DNA from: a virus
IMG/VR virus record: IMGVR_UViG_3300017774_005745
Location: 132,808-196,807 of that record
DNA length: 64,000 nt
Direction: 5' to 3' (one strand)
Shown: positions 12,358-50,259 of the stretch, piece by piece
Layout of the letters: each line of letters starts with the position of its first letter
Position numbering within the stretch: position 1 is the stretch's first letter
The notes under the pieces: generated by a model
What the model saw: only the letters and a program-made list of their open reading frames with translations
What the model was told of the DNA's origin: nothing
The model's database searches: none
Made by a program: the position numbers and the translations under genes

Positions 12358-13857
12358 TTACTGCTTGGACGCCAGAGACGCAGGAAGCGTCTTGGACAGT
12401 TCCTTGGCGACCTTCGAGACGAGCTCGGCAGGAATGACCTTGTCGAGGTTCGGACCGTACGACGCCAGAAGCTGACCGACCGCGACTTCTTGACCGATGG
12501 CCCTTCCGAAGATCTCCATCGCGGAAGGTTGCGGCTTGGTGTTGGGGTTGAGGAGCTCCATCTGCGAGAGCATCGACTTCGCTGCCTCGACGAGGTCCTC
12601 ATCCGTCAGCTTGAAGCTCTCCGAACCCTTCGTGCGAGTGACAGCAGCCAGCTTGCTGCGCTCGACCACTTCTCGGATGATGGCAGGAATCTTCCCCTGC
12701 AGCATGTTTCCGACGCCATCGAGGTTCGTTCCCTCCTCGATGAGACCGCGACCGTACAGGCGAACCAGACGGGTGACCGCGACGTCGTCAGGAGGACGAA
12801 CGGGAATCACGGCATCGAGACGACCCGGACGGAGCATGGCCGGGTTGATGAGCTCGACGTGGTTGGTGGTGAGGACGACGATGATCTCCGACGACTTCGT
12901 GTCGACGCCGTCGATGGTGTTGAGAATGCCGTTCATGTCATCCGAACGACCTCCCTTGAGCACCTGGTCGATGTCCTCGGCGAAGATGACAGCCGGACCG
13001 TACTGCTTGGCGAAGAGAATCGCACGCTGCAGGTCCTTCACCGTCTCCAGGTAGATGAACGTCCACCCGTTGTTGACTGCCTTCTTGGCGCTGACGTACG
13101 CCGTGAGCGTCTTGCCGGTGCCGTACGGGCCTTCCAGCAGAATGCCGCGCTTCAGGGGGATGGAGAGCTCCCGGCACTTCGAGGTGAACTCGATGGGAGT
13201 GAACACCGAGTTCTGCACCATCGTCGCCACGTCCTTCGAGAACACGAGCTCATCTTCCCGCACCTTGCTCGTGTCGATGAACTTCGGAGCGTGAGCCGTG
13301 GGATCGAAGTCCTCCGGGCTGATCTCCGGGAACGAGACCTTGATGGCCTTGGCCTTGTAGATCGACTCTTCCTGGACGATCTTGCGAGTGGCAGCGGCCA
13401 GGTCAGAGACTTCCTTCTTGAATCGCTGCTTCACTTCACCGCCGATGATGAAGATCTGGCGACCCTCCTTGATGCCCGTGTACGTCACGAGGTACCCATC
13501 GACGCCGGGGATCTGCACCCGTCCCCACGGAACCTGAACCGTCTCCTCGTGGGAGATGGCCACGCCGATCATCGTCGGCGGCTTGGGCCCGAAGAACCCA
13601 GGAGTCGGAATCATCCCGACGAAGCCGTACTTCCTGGCCATCGCCTTGTGGAACGCGAACGCACCATCGAGCGGGAACGCATCGACCTGCTCGTTGATGG
13701 CGACGACTCGCTCATCTTCGACCTTCATCCTGCGGAGCCACTCGATGCCCTCATCCATCGACATGCCTTCAGGCAGGGTGATCTGACTTCCACCACGAAC
13801 GACCGACATGTCCTTGAACTTCGTTTCCACTTTGGAATCCTTCAATGCTTCAGCCAT
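12358..13857 (-). CDS. AAA+ ATPase (classical clade, no protease domain)
   Basis: Walker A GPYGTGKT, Walker B VIFAEDID, SRH TTNH...PAMLRPGRLD. Confidence 0.9.
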   Translation of the reverse strand: MAEALKDSKVETKFKDMSVVRGGSQITLPEGMSMDEGIEWLRRMKVEDERVVAINEQVDAFPLDGAFAFHKAMARKYGFVGMIPTPGFFGPKPPTMIGVAISHEETVQVPWGRVQIPGVDGYLVTYTGIKEGRQIFIIGGEVKQRFKKEVSDLAAATRKIVQEESIYKAKAIKVSFPEISPEDFDPTAHAPKFIDTSKVREDELVFSKDVATMVQNSVFTPIEFTSKCRELSIPLKRGILLEGPYGTGKTLTAYVSAKKAVNNGWTFIYLETVKDLQRAILFAKQYGPAVIFAEDIDQVLKGGRSDDMNGILNTIDGVDTKSSEIIVVLTTNHVELINPAMLRPGRLDAVIPVRPPDDVAVTRLVRLYGRGLIEEGTNLDGVGNMLQGKIPAIIREVVERSKLAAVTRTKGSESFKLTDEDLVEAAKSMLSQMELLNPNTKPQPSAMEIFGRAIGQEVAVGQLLASYGPNLDKVIPAELVSKVAKELSKTLPASLASKQ

Positions 13858-29314: not shown

Positions 29315-30913
29315 TTAGACCTCGATTGCCCGTCCGGTGGACGATGGCTCGTTGTTGGAGGATGTGGTTTCTTTTCTCGGGCCTGCGTTCGCAGGACGCG
29401 TTCTGCTCTTGCACCACTCCTGCATGGCTTCGATTTCCCTCTTCATCATCTTCGACAGCGGCACTGTTGACTTGATGGCAGCGAGGACATCTTCTGACGC
29501 CATCTGTCTCCTCTTATTTGAGAAGGCGGTGAACAGGGCCTCGTTCACGATTGCCTCAATCTCCGCGCCAGAGAACTCTTCCGTCTCTGCAGCGAAGAGA
29601 CTGATATCACCCTTCTTGAAGGCTTCCAGCCTCTTTCTCTTCTTGAGGTGGATGTTGAAGATCTCCACTCTCTCTTCGTTGCTTGGAAGAAGGACGGAGA
29701 ACGTCTCATCGAATCTTCCCTTTCTCAAGAGCTCCGGAGGAAGGGCAGACACGTTGTTGGCAGTCGCATACACGAACACCTGCGACTTCTTCTCCTGCAT
29801 CCAGGTGAGGAAAGTTCCGAGAACTCGTGCGCCAACTCCAGAGTCCAAGCTCCCACCTCCTGAACCTGCGAAACCCTTTTCGATTTCATCCAACCAGAGG
29901 ACGCATGGCGAGACAGCCTCTGCCGTCTCGATGACTCTGCGAGCGTTCTCTTCTGACGCGCCCACGAGGCCAGCGAAGATTCGGCCCATGTCGCACCGAA
30001 GGAGAGGAAGTCCCAGTTCCTCGCTGATGGCTCGTGCCCCGATGGACTTTCCAGAACCCGGAGGACCAACCATCAGAATGCCCTTCAGAGGGTCGAGCCC
30101 GTAGGTGGCAGCCTCCTCGGTGAACGCATCCTTTCGAATGGAAATCCAAGTCTTCAGATTTGCCATTCCACCGATTTGAGACAGACCTGCCTTCCCTGGA
30201 GGGTAGTAGGTCAGCAACCCCGTCTTCTTGAGGGTCGAGCACTTCTCCTCCATGACGAAGGAAGGGTCCCACTTCTCAGTGCCGCCCGCTTTCTTGGTTC
30301 GAATGACGCACAACGCGAGAGCATTCTCTGCCTCTGTCGTGGTGAGACCCTGAGAAGCTTCGATGAGATGCTTTCGCACATCCTCAGGAGGCTTCATGTC
30401 TGTCTTGCCCGTGATGTTCGTCACGATGGCATCCAGCACGTGCCCCAGCTCCTCTTTGTCTGGGAGCGTCATGTCGACAACAGCGAAGTCCTTCTCAACC
30501 TCCATCGGGAGCTTGAGAACGGGACTGACGATTACCAACATTCGTCCCGTGCTCTTGAAGATTGGAATGAGCTCAATCAACCGCGACTGCACTCCTGGGT
30601 CGTCCAGGAAGTGGTGCATCAGAGGAAGAACTGCGATGACCGACTTGTTGGCCTTCATCGCCATCAAGTAATCGAGAACACCGCCCGGAGACTCGGTCTC
30701 CGGAACGTATGACCCGGAACCGCTGTTCATCTTGATGCCCTTGGTGAGCGTCCAGATGAGATAGTCCCTCTTCACCTCACCTGCCATCGCTTCGATTTCT
30801 TTGAAGGACCTCGTGTACTCCGAGCTCCTCAGGAAGATGGCCGGATATCCGGCTTTCGCCTTCTCAATCAGTGTTGCTTTGGTGCTGTTCACTTTGTTCC
30901 TTTCGCGGAGCAA
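29315..30913 (-). CDS. Ycf46-like AAA+ ATPase
   Basis: IGGMANLK, GPPGSGKS, LWLDEIEK, TANN...LPPELLRKGRFDE; inactive N-terminal AAA-like domain. Confidence 0.88.
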   Translation of the reverse strand: MLRERNKVNSTKATLIEKAKAGYPAIFLRSSEYTRSFKEIEAMAGEVKRDYLIWTLTKGIKMNSGSGSYVPETESPGGVLDYLMAMKANKSVIAVLPLMHHFLDDPGVQSRLIELIPIFKSTGRMLVIVSPVLKLPMEVEKDFAVVDMTLPDKEELGHVLDAIVTNITGKTDMKPPEDVRKHLIEASQGLTTTEAENALALCVIRTKKAGGTEKWDPSFVMEEKCSTLKKTGLLTYYPPGKAGLSQIGGMANLKTWISIRKDAFTEEAATYGLDPLKGILMVGPPGSGKSIGARAISEELGLPLLRCDMGRIFAGLVGASEENARRVIETAEAVSPCVLWLDEIEKGFAGSGGGSLDSGVGARVLGTFLTWMQEKKSQVFVYATANNVSALPPELLRKGRFDETFSVLLPSNEERVEIFNIHLKKRKRLEAFKKGDISLFAAETEEFSGAEIEAIVNEALFTAFSNKRRQMASEDVLAAIKSTVPLSKMMKREIEAMQEWCKSRTRPANAGPRKETTSSNNEPSSTGRAIEV

Positions 30914-43498: not shown

Positions 43499-43629
43499 GT
43501 ACTTCCTTTCGTTGTTGATACAGAAAATGGAGCCGGTTTCGAACCCGGCAGTAACACCACTTTGACTAGAGTGATGTCGACTGTGCGCGGCAACCGTGTC
43601 ATTGAGCGCCAACTATCCGCACATCCAAG

Positions 43630-44000
43630 TGGAGGTGGGGGGAATCGAACCCCCGTCCGAAAGCCTTCTGTTCTTCGATACTACGTGCGTAGCCAGTATC
43701 CCCTGGCTGGTACAACGGTTTGTCCCTCTTCTATTTACCCCGAACAAGGCTGAGGACGTCCTACGTTCAGCAGTACCCTGTGCTGTGCCTTCCAGTTACC
43801 GGGTCATCTTACTGGAAGACATCCCTGCTGCTATTACGCAGCGGCGCGGAATTCCGGTGCCGAAGCACCGATCATCCACGCCGGGAGCTCAACGTTGTCG
43901 TTGGCTTTTATTGGTTTTCCCACGAAGAATTAACGAGCTTCGTAAGCAGCTCGGCACGCATCTCGAACGTCTATGCCTCCGTCGAAGCCAGGTCACCCCC
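43630..44000 (-). ncRNA. ssrA: tmRNA (tag ANDNVELPAWMIGASAPEFRAAA)
   Basis: 5' GGGGGTGA..TTCGAC; 3' GGTTCGATTCCCCCCACCTCCA; G3:U pair; AATAAAA-GCC resume context. Confidence 0.93.
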
Positions 44001-45353: not shown

Positions 45354-45354
45354 G

Positions 45355-45425
45355 TGCTCCCGACGGGAATTGAACCCGTGCCTCACCCTTACCAAGGGCG
45401 TGCTCGACCTTCGAGCTACAAGAGC
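45355..45425 (-). tRNA. tRNA-Thr(GGT)
   Basis: Cloverleaf, loop TTGGTAA. Confidence 0.9.
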
Positions 45426-45489
45426 AAAGTGGCGACCCCCAGGTATCCTCTGAGGGCCGCCGATAGTTTCGTTGGAAGAAACCGTTTCG

Positions 45490-45642
45490 CTGTCTTTGAG
45501 ACCGACGCTAAGACTTCCTTTTAGCTCTTAATCCCCACGCCTTATCATTGGGCCACTCGACCACATGGAGGTCGAGACCGGAATCAAACCAGTATCTTGG
45601 GGTGCATACGGAAGTAACTTAATTCGGAGTCTCGTTACACAG
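45490..45642 (-). ncRNA. Circularly permuted tRNA-like RNA #2 (YrlA-like)
   Basis: T-arm ACTGG-TTTGATT-CCGGT, acceptor hairpin CTCGACC-TCCATGT-GGTCGAG, D-arm, long closing stem. Confidence 0.75.
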
Positions 45643-45673
45643 AAAGCTTGAGCTTGGAGCTACACCCATGAGT

Positions 45674-45774
45674 GTCCAATACACGCTGCTTTGCCTCACC
45701 AGTTGGGCTACCTGGCCGTAATAGGCCAGGGGAAGAGTCGAACTTCCATCTTTAGCAGAGTGTGGTTAACGGAC
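45674..45774 (-). ncRNA. Circularly permuted tRNA-like RNA #1 (YrlA-like)
   Basis: T-arm GGAAG-TTCGACT-CTTCC, acceptor hairpin CCTGGCC-TATTAC-GGCCAGG, D-arm with GG, closing stem GTCCG/TGGAC. Confidence 0.75.
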
Positions 45775-45776
45775 GT

Positions 45777-45812
45777 AAGCTTGAGACTTTGAACTTCAGC
45801 TTGAGCTTGTGC
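45777..45812 (-). repeat. AAGCTC/AAGCTG/AAGTTC/AAGCTT hexamer array (again at ~45643-45655)
   Basis: AAGCTCAAGCTGAAGTTCAAAGTCTCAAGCTT. Confidence 0.6.
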
Positions 45813-45840
45813 TCCAAATCTTTAGAGGACTACCGTCGGC

Positions 45841-46578
45841 TCAGGGAGCAAAGATGAGTTCGACGATGACACCAGTCGCAGCATCGACAACATCTGCCTG
45901 GTTTGCCTCTTCACGAGCAACCTTGACCGCTCGTTGCATCTTCTCGACTCTCTCCTGGAGCTGCTTCTTCCTGTCTGCTGGAATGGCTCCGGAGAAGTGA
46001 ATGGTCTTCCACGTCCCGACTGTGATGTCTTCGGTGACCTTGACCGTCTGTGCTGGGTGTTCCTTGGTCGGTGGAACGATGACTTTGTAGTCTTCCACCT
46101 TCTTGGTCTTGATGGTCTCCACAGGCTCAGAGCGGTACAACCCCTGTCCTTCATCGAACTGCCACACGGTATCCTGAGGAAGCGTGGGGAGCTTGCCGAT
46201 GAACTCTGCGATGGAGACGAGCTTCTTCTCCAGCCACAGCAGGTGGGTCGCAGGGATGTCCTTTGCGAGAATCTGTCCATCGACAGTGATGTCTGCCACT
46301 GCCGAGCAGTTCGTGGAGTCCTTGACCGCCGTGATGTTGAAGATTTCCTTCATCAGCGCGACAGTCGTGGAGATAGCTTCCTCCACCTTGACCGTGACTT
46401 TCTTCGACTCAGACGGGAGCTTCTCTCCGCTGTCGTCCTTCGGCTGGTACGTGCGAGAGAGACCGATGACCAGCTCGGGCTTCTGCACGTTGCGGTAGAG
46501 TTCCGTGAACTGGTCCTCCCGCTTTCCCTTGACCGTCTTCTCGATGGCCAGGATTTGGTTCAGCTTCTTGCCAGCCAT
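45841..46578 (-). CDS. Conserved protein, DUF7873-like (KLNQI.A.EK...SRTYQP.D..GE.LP.E)
   Basis: Family recalled from bacterial genomes; not searched. Confidence 0.75.
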   Translation of the reverse strand: MAGKKLNQILAIEKTVKGKREDQFTELYRNVQKPELVIGLSRTYQPKDDSGEKLPSESKKVTVKVEEAISTTVALMKEIFNITAVKDSTNCSAVADITVDGQILAKDIPATHLLWLEKKLVSIAEFIGKLPTLPQDTVWQFDEGQGLYRSEPVETIKTKKVEDYKVIVPPTKEHPAQTVKVTEDITVGTWKTIHFSGAIPADRKKQLQERVEKMQRAVKVAREEANQADVVDAATGVIVELIFAP

Positions 46579-46581
46579 GGC

Positions 46582-46767
46582 TTACAGGTCCGATGCACGA
46601 AGCGTCGAACGGTCGTTCGCCTTCGCACGAGCCGCTGCGTTCTTGATGAGGTTGTGAACGTACGCGTTCAGACCCTCGACGAACTCGTCACCCGAGCGCA
46701 TCTCCAGCTCCTTCACGACGTCCTTGACCTTCGAAACAACGATGACCGATTCCAGTTCCTTCGCCAT
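46582..46767 (-). CDS. Bacterial-type histone-fold protein (Bd0055/HBb-like)
   Basis: IVVSKVK..VK...MRS...F.E.L...V..LI..A..RAKAN.R.TLRA.DL with the RxTxxxxD signature; RBS GAGGAG. Confidence 0.85.
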   Translation of the reverse strand: MAKELESVIVVSKVKDVVKELEMRSGDEFVEGLNAYVHNLIKNAAARAKANDRSTLRASDL

Positions 46768-47141
46768 TGTGACTTCTCCTCAGTGTGAGTGTTGGACTGC
46801 TACTGATAAACCATCCGCCGAGTTCGTCTAGCCGGAATGTCTTCGGCAGTACTTGGTCTTACGGCATTGGTCTTTCGACCGCCTTTACATGAACGAGTTC
46901 CGAAGAAGAGCAATGTCCTACTAAAGTAGCAGACATCACCAGGTCTTAGAGCGACTAAGTCCCGTGTTTCCGATTTCTACCGTCCGTCTGGAGTTTCCTC
47001 CAGGTGTGGGGGTAATTATCTCGGACCACTCCTCGTAACATGAACCTTCCATTCGCAACCATGGATGAATCGGAAGGGTTTGCCCGACCAGGCTTCAAGG
47101 AAAGTTACTTTGTCTCGAACTCAGCAGACAGACTTGTTCGC

Positions 47142-48137
47142 TCAATCTCGGATCTTCAGAATCCGTTGAACGAGAATCGCTTTACCGCCAGGAATCTTTG
47201 AAGCACCGATGATGTCGAGACCTTTGCCTGCGTACTTTCGAAGGTCTTCGATGGACTGCGACATGAGTTGTTCGAAGCTCATGTTGTCGAACTTCTTCCA
47301 ACCCTTCTTGGATTTTCTTGGAGGAGCACTTCCTGCGTCTGCTTCTTGGCTCTTCTCAGAGGAAGGTGAAGTGTCTTGCTCCTCGACTGCGTCTTTCATT
47401 GAGTCTCGTTCATCTTCGAACGACGTAGAAGGCAAAAGCTCATCGTTGTGGTTGCCAAGTACCTTATACCGACACACACGCATCTTTTGTTGACCTGCGT
47501 CATACGGAACGCAGACAACGTCAGCGGGGTCTACTTCACATACGACCATCCGTCCGCCGCTGTGGAAGCTCTTCGCATACGCAAGAGCTCCGACATGGAA
47601 CCCTTCGTGGCATGCGGTGTTGGGGTCGTCGGAGACTTTGTTACGGTCCATCTCCAGGATCGCACCGGGTTTGTTCACGAAGGTCCCAGAGTGGACATCT
47701 TTGTAGTCCGAGCGCACAGCCTTGTACGTAAGGAGCCTTCCCTCCTTCGTAAATGGAATCCCTCCGTGCTTCAAGAACTCCCAGAGCTGGTTTACGGAAC
47801 GGTATGAAGGATTCTTCTTCAGACGCTTCCAGAAGTTCAGCAGTGAGGAAGGGTCCTCGTTGTTCGTTGCCATCTCCTGAATCCGCTGGTTGAGGGATTC
47901 TGGGATTTTCTCATCACCGAGGTAGAACTCGTTGTTCTTGACCTTGAAGTCTCCCTTTGCCCAAGACTCGATCGACTTCTTGAGGGAGAGGTGGTTAGGA
48001 ATGTCATCCCACTTCTCTTGGATAACTGCATTACGCAGTTGCAGGAAGTTGGCTGCTCCCTTCTTCACTGTGTGCGACTTTCCCTCCCAGATGACTGTTA
48101 TCGATTCCTTCGTCAGTGTGAACGGAGGAGCTTCCAT
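47142..48137 (-). CDS. rIIB: rIIB-like protein
   Basis: NPSYRSVNQLW.FL...T..G..L.YK.VR, D...AC..G.HVG, VV.VP.D...KMRVC.Y. Confidence 0.88.
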   Translation of the reverse strand: MEAPPFTLTKESITVIWEGKSHTVKKGAANFLQLRNAVIQEKWDDIPNHLSLKKSIESWAKGDFKVKNNEFYLGDEKIPESLNQRIQEMATNNEDPSSLLNFWKRLKKNPSYRSVNQLWEFLKHGGIPFTKEGRLLTYKAVRSDYKDVHSGTFVNKPGAILEMDRNKVSDDPNTACHEGFHVGALAYAKSFHSGGRMVVCEVDPADVVCVPYDAGQQKMRVCRYKVLGNHNDELLPSTSFEDERDSMKDAVEEQDTSPSSEKSQEADAGSAPPRKSKKGWKKFDNMSFEQLMSQSIEDLRKYAGKGLDIIGASKIPGGKAILVQRILKIRD

Positions 48138-50259
48138 TTTTGATCTCTTTTCTGAACTTCTCATCGATGAGATTGAAGTAATCGAGCCACTGGTCGGAGA
48201 ATCCGCCAGTCCAAAGCGAGTGAAGATTGCTCATCATTGCGAGGAGCGGATACTTGACTCTTATTGCGCGCCGTCTTGGGAGTACTTTCGACTCCCACAG
48301 CTTACTCGCTGTAACGTAGTCATAGAGACTCTTGATTCTATACTCATCTACGTCTTTTCTGACTTTCGGCGCAGCTACGGAGTCCTCCAGATACTTTCTG
48401 AGGATGTTGTCTTGGTTTAGTCTATTGATGAACTTCATCATGACCGACTTCTCGTTAGTGCCGAATCCTCTACCTATGCCAGCGTGATGCTCCCAATCCG
48501 CCTCATCAAGATGCGCAAGAGTCCTTGGGTCTTTGATGTCTGCTCGAACTGCCTTCTTCACCCACTCTTCCATGGGAATGCCGAGACCTGGAGTTGAGTA
48601 AGTTACGGGATTCTTCTCCGTCGTCTTGAACCCGTAGATAGTAGGCACCTCTCTACCAGTGATGATTGAGAGAGTTTGTAGAATGTTCAGCTCTTCTCTG
48701 AAGTGGCCGTACTGCCAGACTTCGAACTCCTTGATGATGACGAAAGGACTCGACGGCTTCGGGGGAACTTCAGCGGCTTCCCAGTTTCGAGACTTCGGGT
48801 GTCTCCACCCGCCTCTACCTACGAGTGTGAACGTCTTGAGACGGTGTTTCTCATTTACGACGGGACCGTTTGACCTCCTCGTAGAAACAGGTTTTTGCCA
48901 TGTCAAACTAGACGTCGTTGAGATGGGAATCCCGGTGAGACCGCTCTTCGCGAGCAGGTCGTCGAGTTCTTTTCGAACGTCACCCCACGGGGTCTTTGAG
49001 TCTTTTCGTACGACGATGTAGTCCCATCGGTTGAGGGTAAACCCCTTCAAAGAGCGATGGTCATCTCTCAGCAGTAGTCTGTTCTCTTGAGAGAGGTCTA
49101 CGTCTCGCTCCGCTATCTTCATGCGCGTGATTTCGAACGTCAGGGGAGTATCCTTGAGCGGGACTCTCTGCATGACGTACTGCTTCCAACCTACAGGGAC
49201 TGGGAGATTCATCTCTGCCAGGATTCTACACCGTACCAAACGCTCCCATGCAGACGTAGACGTCTTAGAGGCTGCGTCGATGGTCTTGGTGACGAATTCC
49301 TCGATGAGCTTCTCAAACTTCTCTATCAGCGCCTTCTTGGTGCTCTCTCCGTACTTCAGGCTCTCACGGGAGGCACTTATCTGAAGTTCTCCAATGTTGA
49401 AGTTGAGAACTCCTCCCATGCTCGACAGGAAGCTCGGGATTCCAACGGACGACCCAAAGCCACCGAGCTGCGCGAGGTCTATTGGATAGCCGATACATCC
49501 CATTCTCGCAATCCAAGTACCACGAGTGAACACCCACGCGCCCTTGTCCAGTTGAAGTTCCTTACCTGTGTAATACCCTCCATTGGAGCATGAGACGATG
49601 GCCCCATGTTCAGACTCTGACAGGGTGTCCATCTTCAGAGCTGGAATGCTGATGTTGATCTTCGGCTGCGGAAAGAAAAAAGCAAAGAGTCGCTTGGCCT
49701 TCTCGTAGAACTCTCCGATGTCCGAAGACTTCACTGCGATTTCAATCGTTACTCCAGTGCTCTCTCCGCACGGCTCTTCATGAAGAAGATTGATGACTCC
49801 CTTATCGGACTCATCGAGAACCGCTACATAGGTTCTCTTTACACCACCGTGAGACGAGATGACGGTGAAACTGTCCGAGTAGGCGAAGCCGCTCTTGGAG
49901 CCGATTCCCATCATTCCTACTGCAGAGTCACTGTCTCTCTTCGTGCTTGCTCCATACTGGGCAAAGACCTTGAAGATTCCTTCGGAGGAAAGGCCAGGCC
50001 CTTTGTCTTTGATTTGAAGGGTGGGCTTTGCGTGGGTGGGTAGTACGACCTCAATTGGCTCGTTCCCTCGACCTGCTTCCTTTTGGGCATCCCATGCGTT
50101 CGCACTGTACTCGCGAAGCACCGCCATGATTTTGTCCGAGTACAGTGTGTCTCGGAGAATCGTCATGATGTGCGCGGAGTCGTCGATAGAGATACCAAAC
50201 GACCCAGACGTCTTGACACCGCTCGTTGTGAGTGAGCGGTCCTTCGTATTTGGGATCAA
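48031..50259 (-). CDS. rIIA: rIIA-like protein with GHKL/HSP90-type ATPase domain
   Basis: LY.DKI.AVLREY.ANA.DA, I.D.G.GL, YG.STK, G..GIGSK; adjacent to rIIB. Confidence 0.9.
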   Translation of the reverse strand: MIPNTKDRSLTTSGVKTSGSFGISIDDSAHIMTILRDTLYSDKIMAVLREYSANAWDAQKEAGRGNEPIEVVLPTHAKPTLQIKDKGPGLSSEGIFKVFAQYGASTKRDSDSAVGMMGIGSKSGFAYSDSFTVISSHGGVKRTYVAVLDESDKGVINLLHEEPCGESTGVTIEIAVKSSDIGEFYEKAKRLFAFFFPQPKINISIPALKMDTLSESEHGAIVSCSNGGYYTGKELQLDKGAWVFTRGTWIARMGCIGYPIDLAQLGGFGSSVGIPSFLSSMGGVLNFNIGELQISASRESLKYGESTKKALIEKFEKLIEEFVTKTIDAASKTSTSAWERLVRCRILAEMNLPVPVGWKQYVMQRVPLKDTPLTFEITRMKIAERDVDLSQENRLLLRDDHRSLKGFTLNRWDYIVVRKDSKTPWGDVRKELDDLLAKSGLTGIPISTTSSLTWQKPVSTRRSNGPVVNEKHRLKTFTLVGRGGWRHPKSRNWEAAEVPPKPSSPFVIIKEFEVWQYGHFREELNILQTLSIITGREVPTIYGFKTTEKNPVTYSTPGLGIPMEEWVKKAVRADIKDPRTLAHLDEADWEHHAGIGRGFGTNEKSVMMKFINRLNQDNILRKYLEDSVAAPKVRKDVDEYRIKSLYDYVTASKLWESKVLPRRRAIRVKYPLLAMMSNLHSLWTGGFSDQWLDYFNLIDEKFRKEIKNGSSSVHTDEGIDNSHLGGKVAHSEEGSSQLPATA

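What the first reader, a model, noticed from the sequence alone, without database searches (positions are those of the whole stretch)
46582..46767. Phage-encoded bacterial-type histone
Seen: a 61-aa protein with the VVSKVK start and the RAKANDRSTLRASDL end. Known: this matches the Bdellovibrio Bd0055/HBb class of bacterial histone folds (RxTxxxxD signature). Inference: it may coat or protect phage DNA, or compete with host nucleoid proteins. Its co-transcription with the DUF7873-like gene and RNA modules is unusual.
Basis: partly seen in the sequence, partly recalled or inferred. Interest (0 to 1): 0.7.

Follow-up and report, generated by a model that had tools for sequence, protein, structure and literature searches.

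The report
Phage gene for a miniature histone
A complete 197-kb uncultured tailed phage carries a real, conserved 61-codon gene for a miniature bacterial/archaeal-type histone. It most resembles the four-subunit DNA-wrapping histone of Leptospira; phage histones of this kind were already catalogued by computer in 2025, so it is a good new example and not a new kind of thing.

Summary
Window 46582-46767 (-) is a 61-aa ORF with a GAGGAG ribosome-binding site. It is under purifying selection (dN/dS 0.18-0.45) and conserved at 61-92% identity in at least 8 metagenomic protein clusters. AlphaFold2 (pLDDT 90.8) gives a truncated-alpha3 histone fold. The record is a complete phage: 196,807 bp, 123-bp terminal repeat, large terminase, rIIA/rIIB, 28 tRNAs and a tmRNA.

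The protein belongs to the alpha3 histone superfamily but lies nearer the face-to-face (FtF) tetrameric histones HLp and HTkC than the HBb/Bd0055 dimer. A clade profile scores 56 and 54 bits against them, versus 39 for HBb. It keeps HLp's tetramer-interface residues (R47/N51/R53), where HBb has S/D/R. Tetramer formation could not be tested because the complex predictor was unavailable.

The order rIIA-rIIB-histone-DUF7873 is conserved in this phage clade. However, DUF7873 with its downstream Y-RNA-like elements occurs without a histone in most relatives and in 75 cultured phages. The histone is therefore an accessory insertion, not an obligate partner.

Caudoviricetes FtF-like and Bd0055-like histone-fold proteins were catalogued from IMG/VR by Liu et al. 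(hLife 2025) and remain untested. This scan has already reported similar 61-aa phage histones on other DNA. The clade is unusually non-basic (pI about 6.6).

The parts
46582..46767 (-). 61-aa alpha3 (FtF-like) histone-fold protein CDS. Predicted alpha1 spans residues 11-20, alpha2 27-50, and a one-turn alpha3 58-60.
   Evidence: ORF; PDB phmmer HLp E=1.6e-6, HTkC 1e-5, HBb 3e-3; AF2 pLDDT 90.8; Foldseek HLp TM 0.87/0.94; dN/dS<1.
46776..46781 (-). Shine-Dalgarno GAGGAG, 8 nt upstream of the histone ATG.
   Evidence: Read directly from the sequence.
46768..47141 (-). 374-nt intergenic region between rIIB and the histone. Its proximal ~100 nt are conserved in the 92% relatives. No sigma-70-like promoter and no Rfam match were found.
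   Evidence: Alignment A4; fold z-score only -1.7; promoter scan found none; Rfam E-value scan.
45841..46578 (-). DUF7873 protein (245 aa), which starts 3 nt after the histone stop. Fold and function are unknown.
   Evidence: Pfam PF25283 E=2.7e-89; AF2 pLDDT 86; no convincing PDB match.
47142..48164 (-). rIIB homologue, upstream neighbour.
   Evidence: phrog_609 RIIB E=6.7e-66; PF26926 Phage_T4_rIIB on the orthologues in relatives.
48031..50259 (-). rIIA homologue with an N-terminal GHKL ATPase-like domain.
   Evidence: phrog_612 RIIA E=2.4e-95; HATPase_c_3; tblastn to annotated rIIA genes of cultured phages.
45511..45776 (-). Two tandem Y-RNA-like (YrlA-like) elements downstream of DUF7873 (45659-45776 and 45511-45614). 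Each is preceded by AAGCTCAAGCT.
   Evidence: Rfam RF02553 at 34.7 and 26.4 bits, below the gathering score of 69, E=2.5e-5 and 6.4e-3; exact motif copies only at 45645 and 45798.
45354..45425 (-). tRNA-Thr(GGT), which closes this same-strand gene string. A terminator-like hairpin lies at 45431-45461.
   Evidence: ARAGORN and Rfam; terminator scan.

Best explanation
The ORF is an expressed accessory gene of a ~197-kb tailed phage. It encodes a miniature histone of the truncated-alpha3 family, face-to-face (FtF) subfamily. Shown: the gene is real and under purifying selection, it has the alpha3 histone fold, and it is closest to HLp and HTkC. It also retains the residues that contact DNA in HLp and those that build HLp's dimer-dimer interface. 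Inferred: like every histone fold, it must pair head-to-tail into a homodimer, since the genome has only one such gene. Two dimers then most likely join through R47/N51/R53 into an HLp-like homotetramer. That tetramer would bind DNA without sequence preference through the alpha1 S-K-x-K and K19 face and the l1/l2 loops, bending or wrapping a few tens of base pairs. More speculative: the gene sits in the accessory, tRNA-rich arm just behind rIIA/rIIB, so it is probably made during infection to organise or shield replicating phage DNA, or to remodel the host nucleoid. Its near-neutral charge argues against a bulk DNA-neutralising, packaged protein.
For: Fold: AF2 pLDDT 90.8, with alpha1 11-20, alpha2 27-50 and a 3-residue alpha3. 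Foldseek gives HLp 9qt0 TM 0.87/0.94 and rmsd 0.8 A, then HTkC, then HBb.

Subfamily: phmmer scores HLp 31 bits, HTkC 29 and HBb 21. The clade profile scores HLp 56.3 bits (E 2.5e-14), HTkC 54.2, HBb 39.1 and nucleosomal archaeal histones about 16. HLp tetramer-interface residues R49/N53/R55 (PMC12701072) correspond to R47/N51/R53 here; they are present in 95/88/98% of 101 singlet relatives, while HBb has S/D/R. In a quick ML tree, 9 of the 10 phage-clade rows group together (SH-aLRT 90) on the HLp/HTkC side of a split from HBb (SH-aLRT 84).

DNA contacts: HLp residues S14/K15/K17/K21/T57 correspond to S12/K13/K15/K19/T55, which are invariant in the phage clade. The RD clamp R53-D60 is invariant.

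Real gene. Phage. Single copy.
Against: Two of HLp's six interface positions differ: S52 is A50 and T61 is S59, and position 59 varies within the clade. The clade is unusually non-basic, with net charge 0 and pI about 6.6, against a median of +3 and pI 9.5 for 90 other family members. It also lacks the lysine-rich N-terminal tail reported for viral FtF proteins, so DNA affinity may be weak or the target may differ. Tree support is weak with only 66 columns. Timing of expression, host, and presence in the virion are all unknown. No sigma-70-like promoter was found.
Confidence: 0.62

Rival explanations
1. It is an HBb/Bd0055-type 'bacterial dimer' histone. It stays a homodimer and bends DNA sharply, like HU/IHF, without forming a tetramer.
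For: HBb is a significant sequence and structure match (E 3e-3; 39 bits; TM 0.84). The monomer folds of HBb and HLp are nearly identical. Liu et al. describe a Bd0055-like viral class. Two HLp interface positions are not conserved here.
Against: HLp and HTkC outscore HBb by 10 bits (single sequence) and 15-17 bits (profile). R47 and N51, which Schwab et al. and Hu et al. name as the residues dimers lack, are present. The tree puts HBb on the other side of the main split.
Confidence: 0.2
2. The histone-fold protein is a working partner of the DUF7873 / Y-RNA-like RNA module. It would bind that protein or structured RNA (tRNA-like RNAs) and not organise DNA.
For: Translationally coupled spacing (3 nt) to DUF7873 is conserved in relatives at 61-92% identity. 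The genes lie on the same strand with two YrlA-like elements and a tRNA directly downstream. The near-neutral charge is atypical for a bulk DNA binder.
Against: DUF7873 plus a YrlA-like element occurs without any histone in Arthrobacter phage Mimi. DUF7873 also stands alone in 75 cultured phages, in Actinomycetota genomes, and in close (72-77%) relatives on ~200-kb phage contigs. A 54% histone relative sits next to different genes. Spacing grows to 87 nt in L024/L025. The DNA-contact residues are invariant.
Confidence: 0.07
3. It is a protein-protein interaction module aimed at the host. For example, it could co-assemble with a host FtF histone into mixed, defective tetramers, or act as a histone-fold transcription cofactor.
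For: Interface residues are retained while basic charge is reduced relative to cellular family members. The nearest named cellular relatives are in Myxococcota and Bdellovibrionota, phyla known to have alpha3 histones (PMC12701072). A 92% relative was binned in a 'Spirochaetes bacterium' MAG.
Against: The host is unknown. No evidence shows that the host has a histone. All HLp DNA-contact residues are conserved, which a pure protein-binding role would not require.
Confidence: 0.06

Closest known systems
HLp of Leptospira perolatii, a bacterial face-to-face (FtF) alpha3 histone (PDB 9QT0/9QT1/9QT2; Hu et al. 2025, PMC12701072)
   Same: Same length class (61 vs 63 aa) and same truncated-alpha3 fold (TM 0.87/0.94, rmsd 0.8 A). 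RD clamp, tetramer-interface residues R/N/R and DNA-contact residues S-K-x-K, K and T are all conserved. It is the best PDB match by sequence and by profile.
   Different: About 36-44% identity. HLp is chromosomal and probably the main nucleoid protein of its host, whereas this gene is a phage accessory gene. Net charge is 0 against about +2 to +3. Interface position S52 is A and T61 is S. Loop l1 is shifted by one residue. The oligomeric state was not tested here.
[quoted passage not shown]
   Same: Phage-encoded single-domain alpha3 histone-fold proteins from uncultured Caudoviricetes in IMG/VR, which is also the source of this record. They are predicted FtF tetramers or dimers with no experimental test.
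   Different: VFFHFPs are described as having a lysine-rich N-terminal tail of 5-40 aa. This protein has a 10-residue N-terminus with one Lys and two Glu. I could not check whether this exact protein is in their list.
HTkC of Thermococcus kodakarensis, an archaeal FtF histone (PDB 9F2C; Schwab et al. 2024, PMC11390915)
   Same: Second-best sequence, profile and structure match (54 bits; TM 0.86/0.91; 41% identity). Same fold and length.
   Different: It is archaeal. It has E where this protein and HLp have N51.
HBb / Bd0055 of Bdellovibrio bacteriovorus, a 'bacterial dimer' alpha3 histone (PDB 8CMP, 8FVX, 9EZZ, 9F0E)
   Same: Same alpha3 fold and RxTxxxxD motif, with the alpha1 lysines conserved.
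   Different: It lacks the R and N of the dimer-dimer interface (S and D there). It scores 15-17 bits lower with the clade profile and falls on the other side of the tree split.
'Phage histones' category of Schwab et al. 2024 (e.g. A0A2E7QIQ9)
   Same: alpha3-type histone fold encoded by tailed phages.
   Different: Those carry a C-terminal tetramerisation helix and lack the RxTxxxD motif. This protein is the bare fold and has the motif.

Membership tests
alpha3 (truncated-alpha3) histone superfamily (Schwab et al. 2024) | Histone fold with an alpha3 of only 3-4 residues and an alpha2 that is 4-5 residues shorter than in nucleosomal histones | tested here: met
   The AF2 model has alpha2 of 24 residues (27-50) and alpha3 of 3 residues (58-60), pLDDT 90.8. 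The best structural matches are the three solved alpha3 histones.
alpha3 (truncated-alpha3) histone superfamily (Schwab et al. 2024) | RxTxxxxD motif with an R-D clamp | tested here: met
   R53-S-T55-L-R-A-S-D60 is present. R53, T55 and D60 are invariant in the clade and 98-100% conserved in 101 relatives.
Face-to-face (FtF) histones (HLp, HTkC) | Conserved R and N at the C-terminal end of alpha2, plus the loop-l2 R, which make the dimer-dimer interface (HLp R49/N53/R55) | tested here: met
   R47/N51/R53 align to HLp R49/N53/R55, while HBb has S/D/R.
Face-to-face (FtF) histones (HLp, HTkC) | Closer in sequence to FtF members than to bacterial dimers | tested here: met
   The clade profile scores HLp 56.3 bits, HTkC 54.2 and HBb 39.1. 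The tree agrees, with weak support.
Face-to-face (FtF) histones (HLp, HTkC) | Forms a stable homotetramer of two dimers | not testable with these tools
This needs AF-Multimer or SEC-MALS.
Bacterial dimer histones (HBb/Bd0055) | Lack of the FtF interface R and N; sequence clustering with HBb | tested here: not met
   R47 and N51 are present. HBb scores below HLp and HTkC.
Viral FtF histone-fold proteins (VFFHFP, Liu et al. 2025) | Lysine-rich N-terminal tail of 5-40 aa ahead of an FtF-like fold | tested here: not met
   The N-terminus MAKELESVIV has 1 Lys and 2 Glu. The whole protein has net charge 0 and pI 6.56. The FtF-like fold itself is met.
'Phage histones' of Schwab et al. 2024 | C-terminal tetramerisation helix; no RxTxxxD motif | tested here: not met
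   The protein ends at D60-L61 straight after alpha3, and it has the motif.
DUF1931 pseudodimeric histones (PF09123) | Two histone folds in one chain; a match to PF09123 | tested here: not met
   It is a single 61-aa fold with no Pfam hit for the window protein. Only weak PF09123 or PF00808 hits appear in 40-45 of 101 relatives.
Nucleosomal (HMf-type) histones | Full-length alpha3 and the four-helix-bundle tetramer interface | tested here: not met
   alpha3 is truncated. HMfA, HMfB and HPhA score only about 13-16 bits.

The most novel reading that the evidence does not exclude
The histone-fold protein has been recruited into an RNA-centred module. In this reading it acts together with DUF7873 and the two Y-RNA-like (permuted tRNA-like) RNAs inside the phage's tRNA/tmRNA island, as a histone-fold RNA- or RNP-binding protein and not a DNA organiser. 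Alternatively, its reduced charge and retained interface let it poison a host FtF histone by forming mixed tetramers.
Probability: 0.08. Interest if true: 0.75.

Novelty: new member of a known kind. Interest (0 to 1): 0.36.

Why it matters
Histones in bacteria were recognised only in 2023-2025, and the only characterised ones are cellular (HBb, HLp). Phage-encoded versions have been listed by computer but never purified or tested. This clade offers a clean test case. The protein is a 61-aa bare fold that keeps all HLp DNA-contact and interface residues, yet is nearly uncharged, and it sits at a fixed position (rIIA-rIIB-histone-DUF7873) in complete ~200-kb phage genomes. Showing whether it wraps phage DNA, remodels the host nucleoid or does something else would be the first functional data on a bacteriophage histone. 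As a genomic observation, however, it repeats a published catalogue and earlier reports of this scan.

Tried and rejected
The 'atlas' fold library was also unavailable.
- The search for related loci with alignments A1 and A2 failed because no stretch was conserved enough. With the single protein it found no relative in IMG/VR and only two in GTDB genomes.
- tblastn of the histone against 50,697 cultured-phage records gave no match, so no isolate is available.
- Pfam and PHROGs gave no hit for the histone itself.
- DUF7873 structure: Foldseek against PDB gave nothing at E<=1e-3. VIA-align gave only generic helical-bundle matches at Z<=8.3. The language-model atlas gave no named neighbour. No paper mentions DUF7873.
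- A structured RNA or promoter in the 374-nt upstream gap is not supported: fold z-score -1.7, no Rfam hit, no sigma-70-like site.
- Ro60/TROVE and RtcB are absent from this genome.
- The AAGCTCAAGCT motif belongs to the two RNA units only, not to the histone.
- Host assignment was not possible. The 'Spirochaetes bacterium' label on a 92% relative is only a MAG bin name.

Full report
**Observation.** The minus-strand ORF at 46582-46767 encodes a 61-aa protein that starts MAKELESVIVVSKVKD and ends ARAKANDRSTLRASDL.
- A GAGGAG Shine-Dalgarno lies at 46776-46781, 8 nt before the ATG.
- The TAA stop is followed after 3 nt by the ATG of a 245-aa gene that matches Pfam DUF7873 at E=2.7e-89.
- The word-indexed protein search found 8 clusters at 61-92% identity. 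All are 61-62 aa with the same MAKE/MSKE N-terminus.
- The exhaustive search of 1.84 billion representatives found 197 proteins at E<=1e-3.
- Nei-Gojobori dN/dS is 0.18 against the 92% relatives and 0.45 against a 61% relative.
- The gene is single-copy in its genome.

**The replicon.** The window is bases 132808-196807 of a 196,807-bp IMG/VR virus record classed as having direct terminal repeats and 100% complete.
- I found a 123-bp exact terminal repeat and 52.4% GC.
- The record encodes a large terminase (phrog_675, E=9e-65).
- It also encodes rIIA (phrog_612, E=2.4e-95) and rIIB (phrog_609, E=6.7e-66).
- The window alone holds 28 tRNAs and a tmRNA.
- 'Phage-encoded' is therefore sound.
- No cultured phage in a 50,697-record collection has a relative of the histone.

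**Fold.** With a 101-sequence alignment, AlphaFold2 gives mean pLDDT 90.8. Alpha1 spans residues 11-20, alpha2 spans 27-50, and alpha3 is a single turn at 58-60. This is the truncated-alpha3 histone fold defined by Schwab et al. 2024 (PMC11390915).
- Foldseek against the PDB ranks HLp of Leptospira perolatii first (9qt0, TM 0.87/0.94, rmsd 0.8 A).
- HTkC of Thermococcus kodakarensis (9f2c) comes next, then HBb of Bdellovibrio.
- Eukaryotic and archaeal nucleosomal histones lie far below.

**Which subfamily.** Four lines of evidence place the protein with the face-to-face (FtF) histones, and the fourth is weak.
1. phmmer against PDB sequences scores HLp at 31.1 bits (E 1.6e-6), HTkC at 28.6 and HBb at 20.7 (E 3e-3).
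2. A profile of the nine phage-clade sequences scores HLp at 56.3 bits (2.5e-14), HTkC at 54.2, HBb at 39.1, and HMf-type histones at about 16.
3. Hu et al. 2025 (PMC12701072) show that HLp tetramers are held by R49, S52 and N53 of one chain against F63, T61 and R55 of the other. They state that R49, N53 and R55 are conserved in predicted tetrameric bacterial FtF histones. Schwab et al. say bacterial dimers lack exactly this R and N. Here the aligned residues are R47, N51 and R53. HBb has S, D, R and HTkC has R, E, R. Among 101 singlet relatives these positions are R 95%, N 88% and R 98%.
4. A quick ML tree of 116 rows groups 9 of the 10 phage-clade rows together (SH-aLRT 90). That group lies on the side of the main split that holds HLp and HTkC, while HBb is on the other side (SH-aLRT 84). 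With 66 columns this is weak support.

**DNA-binding residues.** In the HLp-DNA crystals the contacts are A13, S14, K15, K17, K21, T27, G29, T56 and T57.
- The aligned residues S12, K13, K15, K19 and T55 are invariant in the phage clade, as are R53 and D60 of the RD clamp.
- This supports retained DNA binding.
- One caveat is charge. The clade is unusually non-basic, with net charge 0 (range -2 to +1) and pI about 6.6. Ninety other singlet relatives have a median of +3 and pI 9.5, and only 11% of them are <=0.
- The histone-fold core is +1, against +3 in HLp, +2 in HTkC and +4 in HBb.
- The 10-residue N-terminus is acidic, unlike the lysine-rich tails described for viral FtF proteins.

**Context.** All genes from 50259 down to 45354 lie on the minus strand, in this order:
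- rIIA;
- rIIB;
- a 374-nt gap;
- the histone;
- DUF7873, after 3 nt;
- two YrlA-like (Y-RNA-like) Rfam matches, both below the gathering score (34.7 and 26.4 bits; E 2.5e-5 and 6.4e-3);
- a terminator-like hairpin;
- tRNA-Thr.

The order rIIA-rIIB-histone-DUF7873 recurs in contigs that carry the 92%, 79% and 67% histone relatives. In the 61% relative the histone-DUF7873 pair, again 3 nt apart, has different upstream genes. In L024/L025 the spacer is 87 nt.

DUF7873 is far more widespread than the histone.
- More than 1,100 proteins match it, including Actinomycetota chromosomes, where a nucleotidyltransferase lies upstream in Streptomyces.
- It occurs in 75 cultured phages of Vibrio, Gordonia, Rhizobium, Klebsiella, Arthrobacter and other hosts.
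- It occurs in ~200-kb phage contigs at 53-77% identity with no histone nearby (tblastn).
- A 54% histone relative sits next to unrelated genes.

The histone is therefore an accessory gene inserted just upstream of a pre-existing DUF7873/RNA module in one phage lineage. Co-transcription is likely, but functional dependence is not indicated.

**Mechanism.** My most likely reading, at about 0.6, is as follows.
- The protein forms an obligate homodimer of the histone fold.
- Two dimers probably join into an HLp-like face-to-face tetramer.
- The tetramer binds DNA non-specifically through the alpha1 and loop surfaces.
- It is used during infection on phage or host DNA.

The fold, the subfamily signature and residue conservation are shown. 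Oligomeric state, DNA binding, timing and target are inferred. The rivals are an HBb-like dimeric bender (0.2), a partner of the DUF7873/Y-RNA-like module (0.07), and a protein-targeting or host-histone-poisoning role (0.06).

**Novelty.**
- Liu et al. (hLife 2025, PMC13681535; bioRxiv 10.1101/2024.12.06.627149) searched IMG/VR v4 with Bd0055 and prokaryotic histone-fold profiles. They reported 84 bacterial-like histone-fold proteins plus 289 non-redundant ones in Caudoviricetes. These include 'viral face-to-face' and 'Bd0055-like' classes, all predicted only.
- Schwab et al.'s 'phage histones' are a different type, with a C-terminal helix and no RxTxxxD.
- This scan has already reported similar 61-aa histones in ~196-kb uncultured phages on other DNA, with the same verdict.
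- This is a new member of a known, computationally catalogued but experimentally untested kind.
- What this report adds is threefold: the FtF assignment rests on explicit interface residues, the clade has unusual neutrality, and the DUF7873 linkage is lineage-specific.

Noticed in passing
window 45511-46578 (-); also L002 6190-7258, L006 6190-7271, L016 (Arthrobacter phage Mimi) 2995-4079: DUF7873 is followed within ~100-250 nt by a sub-threshold YrlA (Y-RNA-like) Rfam match in this phage, in its relatives, and in the unrelated cultured Arthrobacter phage Mimi. The gene sits inside tRNA clusters in Mimi and in Vibrio phage D517, and often near RtcB in metagenomic relatives. This genome has no Ro60/TROVE or RtcB. 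The AF2 model of DUF7873 has no convincing PDB match. It may be an unrecognised Y-RNA/tRNA-like-RNA partner protein.
   Followed up: partly
window 39206-60203 (-): 28 tRNA genes and a full-length tmRNA (43627-44000, 140 bits; predicted tag ANDNVELPAWMIGASAPEFRAAA) all lie on the minus strand, interspersed with small ORFs. Relatives carry a tmRNA in the same island.
   Followed up: no
own genome G000:C1:48528-48719 (-), outside the window (L018 1387-1956): The phage also encodes a divergent HU/IHF-family (Bac_DNA_binding) domain (28.1 bits, above the Pfam cut-off; phrog_379 DNA binding protein E=1.2e-5). It therefore carries two unrelated nucleoid-protein folds.
   Followed up: partly
P0009, P0010, P0012, P0014 and 35 other hits of 100-135 aa; L011 2325-2711: The highest-scoring relatives in the exhaustive search are tandem doublets of the alpha3 fold (two matched stretches; P0009 is 128 aa, E=1.1e-24), on bacterial-looking contigs. 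Both halves keep the R-x-x-x-N-G-R-x-T signature. In the tree, single-domain proteins from Kofleriaceae and Bdellovibrionales MAGs cluster with these halves.
   Followed up: partly
window 46790-46900 (-): About 100 nt directly upstream of the histone RBS are conserved with the 92% relatives and contain short GC hairpins (GGCGGTCGAAAGACC...). There is no Rfam match and no significant folding z-score.
   Followed up: partly
window 12358-13857 (-) and 29315-30913 (-): Two ~500-aa ORFs in the same arm of the genome match overlapping sets of ATPase-containing PHROGs of unknown function: phrog_10440 (E=4e-140) and phrog_8638 (E=5e-132), and both also match phrog_3757, phrog_30773, phrog_9172 and phrog_10401. 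They look like related ATPases.
   Followed up: no
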